Shown here: one piece after another, positions 24,863-35,963 of the stretch | Numbering within the stretch: the first letter of the stretch is position 1 | Layout: each line of letters opens with the position of its first letter | Assembly: GCA_016840085.1 (NCBI GenBank) | Contig: JAEOTA010000042.1 | Location: 1-37,236 of the forward strand | DNA from: Promethearchaeota archaeon | GTDB taxonomy: Archaea; Asgardarchaeota; Lokiarchaeia; Sigyniarchaeales; SOKP01 | Length of the DNA: 37,236 nt | Direction: 5' to 3' | Position numbers and translations under genes: made by a program | The notes under the pieces: generated by a model | Told to the model about the DNA's origin: nothing | Seen by the model: only the letters and a program-made list of their open reading frames with translations | Database searches by the model: none

Positions 24863-26230
24863 GTGGTTGATTTTAGCAAAATAAGCGATTTTTTTAATAA
24901 TTCTGCAATACCTCAAAATATGCTAAATAGAGGGCAATTAGTACTCAATAATTTCATAAAACCAATAAAAACATTGTTTGAACAAAGGAATGTTCCAAAA
25001 AAACCATGGAGTGATGATCAAATCGAATTTTTACTAAAAACACTTTCGAATATGGATACTGATAAAGACAGTGATGCGGCAAGAGTGGGAGAAAGAGAGG
25101 CAAGAATAGTTTCGAAATTACATCTACAAACTTCCGCAGGGTTTTGCCATGGAATAGGGAGAAGTGGGTTTTTAACGGCTCCACAACCTAAAGCACCTGG
25201 AGGATCAATAATGTACGAAATTTCTAATTATTTAGCAAGAGATATATTAAGAAATTGCGGATTACCAAACATAAAAGAAGCAATTATTGTTCCATTATGC
25301 ACAGGTATGTCTTTATCCTTATCCTTGGGCGCTTTAAGACCAGAATGGAAAAATAATGGTTCAAATATGAGGAGAACTGTTTTGGTTCCTCAAATTGACC
25401 ATAAATCGCTTTTAAAATCAATTGAACTAATGGGACTTAGAACTAAAATTATTAAAGGTAAAATTTTTGGAGATGCTGTTAGAATTCCATTTGAAGACAT
25501 CGAAGCTAATCTTGATAAAGATTGTTATGCTATTGTATCAATAACAAGTTTTTTTCCACCTAGGGAACCGGATAATATCAAAGAAATCAGCAAATTAGCA
25601 AAAGAAAAGGATTTGGTTCATATAGTCATCAATGCTTATGGTGTTCAAAGCCCTGAATGGATGAAATTGATTCGTTCTGCAATAGATGCGGGCAGAATTG
25701 ATGCGATAATTCAGTCAACTGATAAAAATTTTCTTACTCCTGTTGGTGGTGCCTTGATTGCTTCTCCTTTCAAGGAAAATATTACTAAAATCAGTCAAGC
25801 TTACGCGGGGAGAGCTTCGGCTACTCCAGTTGTAAATTTTTTAATTTCTATGCTCTCTATTGGAATTGATGGTTATCATAAAATGATTGAAGAACAAAAA
25901 CAAAATCGAAAACTTTTGGAAGAAAAAATAACTGAGGTTGCCCAAAAGATTAATGAGAGAGTACTTAAAATTTACAATCCTGTAGCAGTAGCATTATCTT
26001 TGGAAAATTTAGAAGAAGAACAATTGTTTGCTCTTGGTGGAGCATTATATAATTTACGAGTTACTGGTCCTCGAGTCTATAATCCCAAAGAAAAAGCGTT
26101 TGGTACATGTTGTGAAAATTATCATACTCCATACATAGTAATGAATGCTGCAATAGGCTCAAAAACAAAAGATATTACTTCTGCTGTAGAAAGATTTGAA
26201 AAAGCTTATTTTCAAATTACTCAAAAGTAG
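24863..26230 (+). CDS. spcS: O-phosphoseryl-tRNA(Sec) selenium transferase (SepSecS)
   Basis: MDTD, GEREAR, HGIGRSG.L.APQPKAPG.S, P..TGM, DHKS, NAYG, QSTDKNFL.PVGG, Y.GRAS, V.G.R, AAIG. Confidence 0.96.
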   Translation: MVDFSKISDFFNNSAIPQNMLNRGQLVLNNFIKPIKTLFEQRNVPKKPWSDDQIEFLLKTLSNMDTDKDSDAARVGEREARIVSKLHLQTSAGFCHGIGRSGFLTAPQPKAPGGSIMYEISNYLARDILRNCGLPNIKEAIIVPLCTGMSLSLSLGALRPEWKNNGSNMRRTVLVPQIDHKSLLKSIELMGLRTKIIKGKIFGDAVRIPFEDIEANLDKDCYAIVSITSFFPPREPDNIKEISKLAKEKDLVHIVINAYGVQSPEWMKLIRSAIDAGRIDAIIQSTDKNFLTPVGGALIASPFKENITKISQAYAGRASATPVVNFLISMLSIGIDGYHKMIEEQKQNRKLLEEKITEVAQKINERVLKIYNPVAVALSLENLEEEQLFALGGALYNLRVTGPRVYNPKEKAFGTCCENYHTPYIVMNAAIGSKTKDITSAVERFEKAYFQITQK

Positions 26231-27181: not shown

Positions 27182-27368
27182 TGGGCCATCGGGGATTTGA
27201 ACCCCGGATCTCAGGTTTTTACTTTTTACAGACATTATTTCTTAATTTCTTTTGTATGTCTGTAGGCCATTTATAAGACCTGCGCTTGTTGGCCAAGCGT
27301 GTTCAAAACCTTGATAACCAATTCAGATAACGGAACAAATATCCAATCATTGGCTGAGCTAATGGCCC
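27182..27368 (-). tRNA. tRNA-Ile (UAU) with three introns (27321-27351, 27288-27314, ~27217-27270)
   Basis: Spliced sequence: GGGCCAT TA GCTC AGCCTGGTTA AAGC G CAGGT CT-TAT-AA ACCTG AGATC CGGGG TTCAAAT CCCCG ATGGCCC A. Short variable loop and A73; BHB helices TCAG/CTGA and TGGT/GCCA, relaxed TTAT/GTAA. Confidence 0.85.
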
Positions 27369-27594
27369 TTAATATTTGTATTTTGTATATCTTCTGCTGA
27401 AAAGTCTGTTTTCAATAAAAATTTTTATTTTTAATGTGTTTTGATGGTTAAATATCTTGGTTATAATTATAATCTAATAAAATCAGAAAAAAGATAAAAA
27501 TTTTTTTATGTTTGAAATATGTTATATTTATAATTAAGTTTAAAATAAGAAAAAAGTAATATATTTTCAATTGATATTTTGAGCGTGAATTGTC

Positions 27595-30353: not shown

Positions 30354-31487
30354 ATGGAAAAAGAAATTCTAGCGTGTATTGATAATGATAATAAAAAATT
30401 TCTACAATCAGGTCAAATTTCTAAATATATTTTTCCAATGGAACGATCAGAAGCTCATAATAAAAAAATAAGCCACTTAATCACCAGATTTTTTATAATA
30501 TCCAAAACTCCTGAAGGAGAAATATTATATTTGGTTCAAAAACGAGGAAAAACTAAGAAAACATATCCTGAATATTTTACTGACTCCTCTTCAGGACATG
30601 TAAATTATGAAAAAAATTTGGATTTAAATAAAATCAAGAAAAATGCAATTAGAGAGCTGGAGGAAGAGTTTGGTATACCTCAAAATGCTCTTCAAAAAGT
30701 GCTCTTTTATGATATTAATACTGAAGGATTAGAGATTGCATATATTTTTTTCGGAATTGTTGACTCCAATGTCGTTTTAAATCCTGATCCTAACGAACTA
30801 GAGATTAAATCTAGCAGATTTTATAATAAAACTGAACTTGAAAACCTATTAGAGAATGAGAAAAACATTGATTACTCAAAGCAAATTTGGAAGAAAATAT
30901 TACATACTGATATAATATCTCTTTTTGAAAAAGAAATTGAACCAATAAGAGAAAATCGAAAAAATATCGCTTTATTTATTGGTAGATTCCAACCTTTACA
31001 TCATGGACATATCTATGTTATTAAAGAAATTTTAAAAACATATAAAAAAATAAAAATTGGAATAGGGAGTTCTCAATTATCTCATACATTAAACGATCCA
31101 TTTTCTAGCGAAGAAAGAAAAGAATTTATCAGAGTTGCTTTAAAAAAGAGAAATATATCACCTAAAAAATTCGAAATTTATGAGATTCCAGATATTTTTA
31201 ACGCAAAAAAATGGGTAGATCATGTAATCTCAATTGTAGGGGAATTTAATTCAGTTGTTTCTAATAGTGATTGGGTCAGAGAATTGTTTTTTAAGAAAGG
31301 AATTAAGGTAGAGAAAAAAATAACTATTTTTAAAAATAATTTTAATGGGAATAATATCAGAAAATCAATAATACAAAATAATAAAAAGTGGAAAACTTTA
31401 ATGCCTAAAGAAGTAGTAGAATTAATTCAAGAATATAATGGAGTTAATCGCATTAAGTCTTTACATAAAAAATACATTAATCCATGA
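30354..31487 (+). CDS. Fusion: IDI-like Nudix domain + nicotinamide-nucleotide adenylyltransferase (NadM type)
   Basis: N-terminus LVQKR...K.TYP...SSGHV...AIRELEEEFG; C-terminus FIGRFQPLHHGH, IGSSQ.SH...DPF...ER. Confidence 0.88.
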   Translation: MEKEILACIDNDNKKFLQSGQISKYIFPMERSEAHNKKISHLITRFFIISKTPEGEILYLVQKRGKTKKTYPEYFTDSSSGHVNYEKNLDLNKIKKNAIRELEEEFGIPQNALQKVLFYDINTEGLEIAYIFFGIVDSNVVLNPDPNELEIKSSRFYNKTELENLLENEKNIDYSKQIWKKILHTDIISLFEKEIEPIRENRKNIALFIGRFQPLHHGHIYVIKEILKTYKKIKIGIGSSQLSHTLNDPFSSEERKEFIRVALKKRNISPKKFEIYEIPDIFNAKKWVDHVISIVGEFNSVVSNSDWVRELFFKKGIKVEKKITIFKNNFNGNNIRKSIIQNNKKWKTLMPKEVVELIQEYNGVNRIKSLHKKYINP

Positions 31488-32545
31488 AAACTGCAAAATT
31501 TTTAGAAATTAACGGATCTTTAGGGGAAGGGGGAGGCGCAATACTCCGAATAGGAGCGGGATTTTCAATCCTATTCAATCACCCCATCCGAATAAAAAAT
31601 ATACGCGCAAATAGACCTAAACCAGGATTAAGATTACAACATTTAATGGGATTAAAGATTTTATCAGAATTGACGAATAGTATTTTATCTAATTGTGATG
31701 TTGGAACTAAAGAAATTACACTAATTCCTAAACAAGCTTTAAAAAAATATATTGAGGTTAAAATTGGAACAGCTGGAAGTATTGGTTTATTACTTCAACC
31801 CATTCAAATTGCGTGTTTAAACTTTAATCAACCAGAAAAAATTGAAATTATAATAAATGGCGGAGGTACATTCGGTAAATGGGCTCCAAGTCTTAATTAT
31901 CTTAAAGATGTTACCTACAAAATTTTTAGAAATTATGGTTTTAAAATGGAAATTGACATTCAAAAACATGGGTTTTACCCTAAGGGAGGCGCTCATGTAA
32001 AATGCATCTTATATCCTCCTAAAAATAAGCTTAAACCAATCTTTTTAACTGAATTAGGAAATCTAGACTTAATTCAAGGTGAAATAATTAGCACATCTCA
32101 ATTGAAAAAAAAAGATGTTGGCGAACGCATAAGAAAATCAGCTCAACAACAATTAAAAAAACACTTAAAAATGAATATTAAGATTGATTATAAATATGTT
32201 AATTCGATGAGCCCAGGGGTAGGGCTTTCTTTAAGAGCATGTTCAGATACAGGAGCTATCATATCCTCAGGAACAATACTAGGTGAAAGAAATATTACTT
32301 CGGAAGAATTAGGTAAATTGGCGGCGAATGAACTTATAAAATATATTAAGAATGGTATTCCTGTTGACAATTATCTAAGCGACCAATTAATACCTCTCAT
32401 GGGATTCGTCAACAAACCATCCAGAATAAAAGTTCTTGAACTTACTAGCCATGCAAAAACTAATTTAGAATTAATTAAATTGTTTTTAAATAGAAATTAT
32501 AGAATAATTAAAGAAAATAAACATTTCATTATAGAGTTCCAATGA
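31484..32545 (+). CDS. rtcA: RNA 3'-terminal phosphate cyclase
   Basis: GS.GEGGG.ILR, IRANRPKPGLR.QH, TAGSI.L.LQ, GFYPKGG, VD.YLSDQLI, TSHA.TN. Confidence 0.93.
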   Translation: MKTAKFLEINGSLGEGGGAILRIGAGFSILFNHPIRIKNIRANRPKPGLRLQHLMGLKILSELTNSILSNCDVGTKEITLIPKQALKKYIEVKIGTAGSIGLLLQPIQIACLNFNQPEKIEIIINGGGTFGKWAPSLNYLKDVTYKIFRNYGFKMEIDIQKHGFYPKGGAHVKCILYPPKNKLKPIFLTELGNLDLIQGEIISTSQLKKKDVGERIRKSAQQQLKKHLKMNIKIDYKYVNSMSPGVGLSLRACSDTGAIISSGTILGERNITSEELGKLAANELIKYIKNGIPVDNYLSDQLIPLMGFVNKPSRIKVLELTSHAKTNLELIKLFLNRNYRIIKENKHFIIEFQ

Positions 32546-35862: not shown

Positions 35863-35963
35863 GCAGACATAGCCTAGCCTGGTACGGCGCTGGCTTGGAG
35901 CGGAAATATTCCCAGAAAGCCAGTGTGTGAATGCACCCGAGGGTTCAAATCCCTCTGTCTGCG
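35863..35963 (+). tRNA. tRNA-Ser (GGA) with canonical 17-nt intron (35901-35917)
   Basis: Acceptor GCAGACA/TGTCTGC + G73; CTGGC-TT GGA G|A-GCCAG; BHB helix TTGG/CCAG; long variable arm; GAGGG TTCAAAT CCCTC. Confidence 0.93.

What the first reader, a model, noticed from the sequence alone, without database searches (positions are those of the whole stretch)
27217..27351. Three introns and a 6-nt micro-exon in one tRNA
Seen: intron 1 (31 nt) has helix TCAG/CTGA with bulges CC|A and AT|T. Intron 2 (27 nt) has helix TGGT/GCCA with bulges TA|T and AC|A. Intron 3 (54 nt) has a TACAGACAT/ATGTCTGTA hairpin and only a relaxed motif, best placed at 38/39. The middle exon is TGGTTA. Splicing recreates the standard D-loop AGCCTGGTTA but leaves a C13.A22 mismatch. 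Known: triple-intron tRNAs are best known from Thermoproteales and need a broad-specificity EndA. Inference: ordered splicing; standard annotators probably miss this gene.
Basis: partly seen in the sequence, partly recalled or inferred. Interest (0 to 1): 0.7.

Follow-up and report, generated by a model that had tools for sequence, protein, structure and literature searches.

The report
Three-intron tRNA-Ile(UAU) with ACA-box intron
This is a real isoleucine tRNA gene of a Loki-type Asgard archaeon, cut by three introns, which is ordinary for this group; what seems new is that its anticodon intron keeps a stem and an ACA triplet at a fixed spot across many Asgard families, as if it carried a built-in signal for modifying its own anticodon.

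Summary
The three introns and the 6-nt exon are confirmed: relatives lacking intron 1 or 2 give the same junctions. The spliced product is tRNA-Ile(UAU) of a Lokiarchaeia family without TiaS (0/68 genomes), probably the only reader of AUA (3.7% of codons). Other archaea do this too, and this scan already noted it on other Asgard DNA. Three introns are ordinary: 64 of 84 homologues have 3-4, and Asgard multi-intron tRNAs are published. C13.A22 is genomic in 35/84, so editing is not needed. Introns 1 and 2 cannot show strict motifs at the same time (shared U17a), but no order is forced. New here: the anticodon intron is in every homologue parsed and keeps ACA 13 nt after a G that can pair with C32. 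This holds in 83/86 family introns and 20/27 introns from ten other families, against 0/14 CAU-tRNA introns. It fits the H/ACA 14-nt rule and the T-arm/CCA geometry that Cbf5 binds, pointing at U34. My reading (about 35%): an intron-borne signal for pseudouridine 34, as in eukaryotic tRNA-Ile. Untested; outside the family the exon pairing is weak.

The parts
27182..27368 (-). tRNA-Ile(UAU) gene, G1 to discriminator A73; 75-nt mature body, CCA not encoded
   Evidence: 20 of 21 stem pairs; syntenic homologues
27352..27368 (-). exon 1 (positions 1-17)
27321..27351 (-). intron 1, 31 nt, position 17/17a, strict BHB; present in 25 of 84 homologues
27315..27320 (-). 6-nt micro-exon TGGTTA (17a-21); its first base is shared by BHB1 (bulge) and BHB2 (helix)
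27288..27314 (-). intron 2, 27 nt, position 21/22, HBh' motif; nearly universal in the genus
27271..27287 (-). exon 3 (positions 22-38); anticodon UAU at 27275-27273; G29-C32 at 27280-27277
27217..27270 (-). intron 3, 54 nt, position 38/39 (37/38 in other families); present in every homologue parsed
27265..27268 (-). GGCC segment of intron 3, complementary to exon G29-C32 (candidate 3' guide strand)
27227..27264 (-). intron-3 stem (27264-27256 with 27235-27227) and its A/U-rich loop; covarying (candidate P1 stem)
27253..27255 (-). conserved ACA triplet, 13 nt after the G at 27268
27219..27222 (-). 3' strand (GTAA) of the BHB3 central helix, pairing with U33-U36
27182..27216 (-). exon 4 (positions 39-73)

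Best explanation
A functional, single-copy tRNA-Ile(UAU) gene of a Lokiarchaeia (Promethearchaeia) archaeon. SHOWN by sequence comparison: three BHB introns, a UAU anticodon on an Ile body, and no TiaS in the genome or family. INFERRED (about 0.85): it replaces tRNA-Ile2(CAU)/agmatidine as the AUA reader. INFERRED (about 0.6): an (alpha-beta)2 EndA removes the introns one at a time, intron 1 first and the anticodon intron last, because that intron first folds back on exon G29-C32 and hides its own BHB. SHOWN: the anticodon intron is old, never lost in the homologues parsed, and keeps a stem plus ACA at a fixed distance while the sequence between turns over. INFERRED (about 0.8): that element is kept for a function beyond splicing. 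Most likely mechanism (about 0.35, the best single option): exon-intron helix plus intron stem form a 12-bp stack, one free base and ACA. This mimics the T-stem/acceptor/N73/CCA and P1S/P1/ACA shapes bound by the PUA domain of Cbf5, so Cbf5-Nop10 makes pseudouridine at U34 (perhaps also U36) before splicing, or from the excised intron in trans. That would limit AUG misreading and block C5 modification by Elp3.
For: Junctions fixed by intron-less relatives. UAU-arm motif in 64/68 family genomes, TiaS in 0/68, and no tblastn hit with four Asgard TiaS proteins. AUA 36.6 per 1000 codons. BHB3 and the intron stem: 99.5% of cells paired, 6 pairs with two-sided changes, 0/500 shuffles. ACA at +13 in 83/86 family introns, at +14 in 2, ANA in 1; background 1.5%. 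Outside the family 20/27, in 7 of 10 families. With the first base left free in the pattern, all 14 hits read ACA. Controls: 0/14 CAU-tRNA introns, 2/45 inserts in this genome. Guide positions vary almost only in ways that keep pairing to U31 and G30, and a G28 variant carries a matching extra C. The exon-intron helix has P 0.81-0.99 in the window precursor. Cbf5 with catalytic Asp, Nop10 and Elp3 are encoded. Geometry rules: PMC7075261 (n+15; ACA-dependent double modification of unpaired UVUN, which U34-A37 matches), PMC2651775 (14 nt), PMC2018633 (acceptor-CCA equals P1-ACA).
Against: No RNA or modification data. No K-turn, upper stem or conserved 5' guide strand. Outside the family the exon pairing is only 2-4 bp, often with an A.C mismatch at 31; the same bases also form the BHB inner helix; and the cis fold is rare by energy (P below 0.08, mostly below 0.005). 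In the Odin-like, f18 and f26 introns the stem before ACA is short or absent. ACA is missing in seven introns (f4, f5, f7 and four in f2) although Cbf5 is present in the five exception genomes checked. The ruler alone cannot tell U33 from U34. Exon 29-32 is invariant in the family, so two-sided covariation there rests on about one event. Mycoplasma mobile reads AUA with unmodified U34 (PMC3575796). The EndA alpha gene is not in this assembly.
Confidence: 0.8

Rival explanations
1. The stem and ACA are a binding site for a different protein, for example a TruA/Pus1-like synthase (as in yeast intron-dependent Psi34/36), Pus10 or another PUA/THUMP enzyme, or a factor that delays splicing or keeps Elp3 off U34. 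Cbf5 is not involved.
For: TruA is present. In yeast the tRNA-Ile(UAU) intron is a determinant for Pus1, not a guide (PMC4090602, PMC9602550). The element lacks a K-turn and 5' guide, and the cis fold is weak outside the family.
Against: The triplet is ACA and its spacing matches the Cbf5 ruler (PMC7075261, PMC2651775). I know of no ACA requirement for TruA/Pus1 (own knowledge).
Confidence: 0.3
2. The excised (linear or circular) intron is a guide for another RNA, or has a role unrelated to U34.
For: The archaeal tRNA-Trp intron acts in trans (PMC4090602). The exon complementarity is short. ACA starts at intron nt 15-16 in all types, so it may be measured from the intron's 5' end.
Against: The few guide bases that are conserved match the host's own positions 29-32. 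The element occurs in UAU tRNAs of TiaS-less lineages and not in CAU tRNA introns.
Confidence: 0.12
3. Intron 3 is only a BHB intron; ACA is an inherited remnant and the exon complementarity is a by-product of the inner helix.
For: The introns are homologous, so counts are not independent. Three families and some f2 genomes lack ACA. G at intron nt 2 also pairs in the BHB inner helix.
Against: Intron nt 5-14 and 18 onward turn over across families while nt 15-17 stay. A C stays fixed in an unpaired, A/U-rich loop in 83/86. Intron length varies from 29 to 62 nt without moving the triplet.
Confidence: 0.18
4. One reading: the interest lies in a rare triple-intron gene with obligatory ordered splicing and C13-to-U editing.
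For: U17a is shared by two motifs and motif 1 is the most accessible (P about 0.1 against 1e-8 and 1e-6). Two homologues (L088, L105) have a C13.A mismatch in the intron-1 helix that U13 would repair.
Against: 3-4 introns in 64/84 homologues and C13.A22 in 35/84. Other non-Watson-Crick 13-22 pairs occur in relatives. Intron 2 is spliced in many relatives that have no intron 1. Multi-intron Asgard tRNAs are published.
Confidence: 0.1

Closest known systems
Multi-intron tRNA genes of Asgard archaea (Valentin-Alvarado 2024, PMC11291895; Goswami et al., 10.64898/2026.10.13.758758) and Thermoproteales
   Same: Several BHB introns per gene, D-arm introns missed by annotators, recent gains, (alpha-beta)2 EndA.
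   Different: Those papers focus on Jordi/Freyr/Atabey lineages. A word search of the preprint found no mention of Ile or Loki, and I found no intron-borne element described.
tRNA-Ile3(UAU) of Nanoarchaeum equitans, Korarchaeum cryptofilum and ARMAN (PMC8450103, PMC6000648, PMC3239211)
   Same: UAU anticodon instead of Ile2(CAU); TiaS absent in ARMAN; an intron reported for Korarchaeum and ARMAN-2.
   Different: Here it spans a whole Asgard class and several other families. I could not examine those organisms' introns for the ACA element.
Eukaryotic pre-tRNA-Ile(UAU): yeast Pus1 intron-dependent Psi34/Psi36; three-intron gene of Cyanidioschyzon merolae (PMC4090602, PMC9602550)
   Same: Same anticodon and an anticodon-loop intron; in C. 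merolae three introns with the anticodon one removed last.
   Different: The enzyme there is Pus1 (TruA family); here the motif points to Cbf5. Many other Asgard families keep TiaS, so common descent is not shown.
Box C/D guide nested in the archaeal tRNA-Trp intron (PMC4090602)
   Same: A tRNA intron that carries a module for modifying position 34 of its own tRNA.
   Different: That is 2'-O-methylation by a full C/D RNP; this would be pseudouridylation by an incomplete, inside-out H/ACA-like module.
Archaeal box H/ACA guide RNAs, including Sso1 for Psi35 of pre-tRNA-Tyr (PMC2651775, PMC7075261) and guide-free Cbf5 activity at U55 (PMC2018633)
   Same: Lower stem followed by ACA, 14 nt between ACA and the candidate target, 3' guide pairing 5' of the target.
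   Different: No upper stem, K-turn or conserved 5' guide; ACA lies inside a terminal loop; the module sits in the substrate's own intron.

Membership tests
Archaeal BHB-intron tRNA gene | Removal of inserts gives a full cloverleaf with invariant bases | tested here: met
   75 nt, 20/21 stem pairs
Archaeal BHB-intron tRNA gene | 4-bp central helix with 3-nt bulges at each intron | tested here: met
   4/4 for all three; flanking helices 5+1, 4+1 (or 4+0), 1+0 bp; covariation
Archaeal BHB-intron tRNA gene | Broad-specificity EndA encoded | tested here: inconclusive
   Beta-like subunit without catalytic His in G000. Alpha and its whole gene block are missing from the assembly; an alpha-like hit is in 35/36 genus relatives, with Tyr/His/Lys and L1 loop in those read
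Archaeal BHB-intron tRNA gene | Splicing in vivo | not testable with these tools
   No RNA holder listed
tRNA-Ile3(UAU), TiaS-independent AUA decoding | UAU anticodon on an Ile body with A73 | tested here: met
   the BHB3 partner strand pairs with U34 as A or G
tRNA-Ile3(UAU), TiaS-independent AUA decoding | No TiaS gene | tested here: met
   0/68 family genomes
tRNA-Ile3(UAU), TiaS-independent AUA decoding | No tRNA-Ile2(CAU) | tested here: inconclusive
   None found in G000 or four relatives, but the assembly has gaps and the pattern misses interrupted genes
tRNA-Ile3(UAU), TiaS-independent AUA decoding | Charged with Ile, reads AUA not AUG | not testable with these tools
   needs biochemistry
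Box H/ACA guide RNA | ACA/ANA 3' of a lower stem | tested here: met
   but ACA lies inside a terminal loop, and the stem is short in some families
Box H/ACA guide RNA | 14-nt (n+15, plus or minus 1) spacing from ACA to a target U | tested here: met
   14 nt for U34, 13 nt for U33
Box H/ACA guide RNA | 3' guide strand pairing 5' of the target | tested here: inconclusive
   3-5 bp in the family (96% of cells, one-sided changes only); 2-4 bp elsewhere
Box H/ACA guide RNA | 5' guide strand pairing 3' of the unpaired UN | tested here: not met
   only 2 possible pairs, explained by the BHB
Box H/ACA guide RNA | Upper stem with K-turn or K-loop | tested here: not met
   none in alignment A1; no Rfam hit
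Box H/ACA guide RNA | Guides pseudouridylation with Cbf5 | not testable with these tools
   Cbf5 and Nop10 are encoded; activity untested

The most novel reading that the evidence does not exclude
The anticodon intron of tRNA-Ile(UAU) in TiaS-less Asgard archaea is an inside-out, ACA-bearing half guide that recruits Cbf5 to write Psi34 (and perhaps Psi36) into its own anticodon. It would be an H/ACA-type module in a tRNA intron, an archaeal route to the eukaryote-like Psi-A-Psi anticodon, and the reason this one intron is kept while the others come and go.
Probability: 0.35. Interest if true: 0.8.

Novelty: new variant of a known kind. Interest (0 to 1): 0.57.

Why it matters
How archaea without TiaS keep a UAU tRNA from reading AUG as Ile is, as far as I found, open, and AUA is twice as common as AUG in this genome. 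A conserved element in the intron gives a precise, testable answer, with cultured Lokiarchaeia and recombinant Cbf5 as tools. If true, it adds a second kind of self-modifying archaeal tRNA intron beside the Trp box C/D case. It also gives a reason why some tRNA introns persist and parallels intron-dependent pseudouridylation of eukaryotic tRNA-Ile. The triple-intron layout itself matters only for annotation.

Tried and rejected
A CAU anticodon taken from inside intron 3: no BHB supports it, and relatives keep UAU. Registers 36/37, 37/38 and 39/40 for intron 3: 3, 1 and 3 central pairs; relatives whose intron starts with U or G exclude 39/40. ARAGORN's 'tRNA-Ile(tat)' on contig C83 is a mis-parsed tRNA-Thr(CGU). 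A split or pseudogene reading: rejected by synteny and exon conservation. A lone, His-less EndA as a special enzyme: rejected, because the alpha gene lies in an unassembled block. A full two-sided H/ACA pocket, in the precursor or a circular intron: no conserved 5' guide. Loss of ACA tracking loss of Cbf5: not seen. No RNA holder listed, so no statement on expression; laid runs are DNA contigs only. The metagenome scan gave mostly chance hits and intron-less tRNAs. Literature searches for Asgard with TiaS, UAU or an intron-encoded pseudouridine guide found nothing relevant; the library lacks most subscription journals. My tRNA census is a hand-set profile with boundaries good to about 2 nt and is incomplete.

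Full report
1. Observation. The minus strand from 27368 to 27182 is a tRNA gene with inserts at 27351-27321, 27314-27288 and 27270-27217. Removing them gives 75 nt with 20 of 21 stem pairs; the one mismatch is C13.A22. Shuffled introns give such a motif in 1-2% of cases each. Homologues settle the junctions without using the motif: genes lacking intron 1 read straight into TGGTTA, and genes lacking intron 2 join the D-loop to position 22. ARAGORN and Rfam miss the gene. An independent study's contig carries all three introns.

2. Host and context. Exact-motif hits are mostly records titled Promethearchaeota or Promethearchaeia, i.e. Lokiarchaeia. The genome is 4.68 Mb and 29.5% GC. Flanking genes recur in 61-74 of 80 loci, so the locus is orthologous across the family. 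My census parsed about 36 tRNA genes, 30 with inserts, including a four-intron Phe and a three-intron Trp. Among 84 homologues of this gene, 20 have two introns, 49 three and 15 four; 25 have the same 6-nt exon. Heavily interrupted Asgard tRNAs, missed D-arm introns and up to five inserts per gene are published (PMC11291895; 10.64898/2026.10.13.758758). The layout is therefore ordinary for the lineage.

3. Identity. The anticodon loop is CU-UAU-AA on an Ile-type acceptor with A73. TiaS is not found in this genome by profile or by tblastn with four Asgard TiaS proteins. It is found in 0 of 68 family genomes, while 171 of 301 phylum genomes have it. The UAU arm motif is in 64 of those 68. AUA is 36.6 per 1000 codons, AUG 18.5. 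The same swap is known from Nanoarchaeum, Korarchaeum and ARMAN (PMC8450103, PMC6000648, PMC3239211), and earlier notes of this scan report it for other Asgard genomes. Absence of Ile2(CAU) is likely but not proven.

4. Splicing. Most relatives have two EndA paralogues. The alpha subunits read have the Tyr/His/Lys triad and an L1-type insert, as reported for Asgard (PMC5829648). This assembly holds only the His-less subunit; the alpha gene and about ten neighbours are all missing, which marks an assembly gap. U17a is a bulge base for intron 1 and a helix base for intron 2, so both strict motifs cannot form together. Neither needs the other removed, though: intron 2 has a 1-bp outer helix before and none after. 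Computed accessibility in the primary transcript is about 0.1, 2e-8 and 1e-6 for motifs 1-3, and motif 3 rises to 1e-3 after the D-loop introns go. This favours intron 1 first and leaves intron 3 masked for long, but such models ignore enzyme binding and tertiary structure. C13.A22 is genomic in 35 of 84 homologues and always goes with A9, whereas U13-A22 mostly goes with U9; editing is not required.

5. The anticodon intron. Unlike the others it is in every homologue parsed. In 86 distinct family introns it reads G-R-Y-Y, a covarying stem, two bases, then ACA. The stem and BHB pairs hold in 99.5% of cells with six doubly changed pairs. ACA begins 13 nt after the G in 83, 14 nt after in 2, and is ANA in 1; its rate in the variable loop is 1.5%. 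I recovered 27 further tRNA-Ile(UAU) introns from ten other TiaS-less families with a covariance model and patterns that stop before the triplet; the model itself contains ACA, which biases the ten it found. Twenty have ACA at intron nt 15-17, in seven families, although nt 5-14 have turned over and lengths run from 29 to 62 nt. Among the 17 found by pattern alone, 12 have it. None of 14 anticodon introns of CAU tRNAs has it, and many Ile2(CAU) genes of TiaS-positive Asgard have no such intron. The G-R-Y-Y bases can pair with exon C32-G29, and variation keeps that pairing in 96% of cells. A variant with G28 carries an extra C. In the window precursor this helix is the dominant fold.

6. Mechanism. 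Exon-intron helix plus intron stem cover 11-12 of 12 positions in 80 of 86 family introns, followed by one free base and ACA. That is the shape of T-stem plus acceptor plus N73 plus CCA, which Cbf5 binds through its PUA domain, and of P1S/P1/ACA in H/ACA guides (PMC2018633). The 14-nt rule (PMC2651775, PMC7075261) puts U34 in the active site, with U33 as the U54-like base. ACA-dependent modification of both uridines of an unpaired UVUN is shown in Haloferax (PMC7075261), and U34-A37 fits. Cbf5, Nop10 and Elp3 are encoded. In yeast, intron-dependent Psi34/36 is thought to favour AUA over AUG (PMC4090602). That Psi34 would also block C5 modification by Elp3 is my inference. Against this: no K-turn or 5' guide; short exon pairing and a rare cis fold outside the family; loss of ACA in some lineages that keep Cbf5; U33 cannot be excluded by spacing; and unmodified U34 suffices in M. 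mobile (PMC3575796). I put constraint on the element at about 0.8 and the Cbf5 route at about 0.35.

7. Comparison and verdict. The gene is a member of the BHB-intron tRNAs and, on two of three testable features, of tRNA-Ile3(UAU). The intron module is not a member of the H/ACA family, since two defining features fail, but it may work like half of one. The nearest precedent is the C/D guide in the tRNA-Trp intron. Earlier scan notes describe the complementary half (K-turn, no lower stem) in Asgard tRNA-Tyr introns; none of the notes returned describes this ACA element, nor did my literature searches. Interest 0.57.

Noticed in passing
window 24863-26230 (+): SepSecS gene one ORF away from the tRNA, syntenic in 61 of 80 relatives' loci; selenocysteine pathway.
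   Followed up: partly
window 31484-32545 (+): RNA 3'-terminal phosphate cyclase (RtcA) gene in the same window.
   Followed up: no
window 35863-35963 (+): tRNA-Ser(GGA) with a 17-nt canonical intron.
   Followed up: partly
window 27413-27426 (-): A/T-rich BRE/TATA-like stretch about 50 nt upstream of the tRNA; similar runs lie upstream of f2 homologues. Not tested.
   Followed up: no
G000:C78:52034-52190 (-): tRNA-Tyr intron with a hairpin followed by CAGCC complementary to exon 30-34, leaving U35 free; matches earlier scan notes on a Tyr self-guide. No ACA at the 14-nt position.
   Followed up: partly
L253, L255, L288, L301, L330, L332, L345 and others: Elongator tRNA-Met introns across Asgard share a GGG-Y-Y-AGA motif; perhaps a pairing site for a box C/D guide of Cm34.
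   Followed up: no
L505, L507-L510, L512, L513, L519-L523: A G28/GGCCC variant of this tRNA-Ile(UAU) is scattered over three genera whose other members carry the A28 form: transfer or old polymorphism.
   Followed up: partly
L237 (G051:C209): The anticodon intron appears to hold a second, nested BHB insert near its 3' end.
   Followed up: no
L360, L366, L379, L405: tRNA-Ile(UAU) on low-GC metagenome contigs with 16-18-nt introns whose 5' ends are complementary to exon 28/29-33 but lack ACA.
   Followed up: partly
L264 (G300:C1:387315): Intron-less, degenerate-looking tRNA with UAU anticodon in a TiaS-positive genome.
   Followed up: no
G000 assembly: The EndA alpha gene block (about 15 kb in relatives) and several tRNAs are missing despite 98.8% marker completeness.
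   Followed up: yes
other contigs of G000: Earlier scan notes list many candidate BHB introns in protein genes of this genome; not checked.
   Followed up: no
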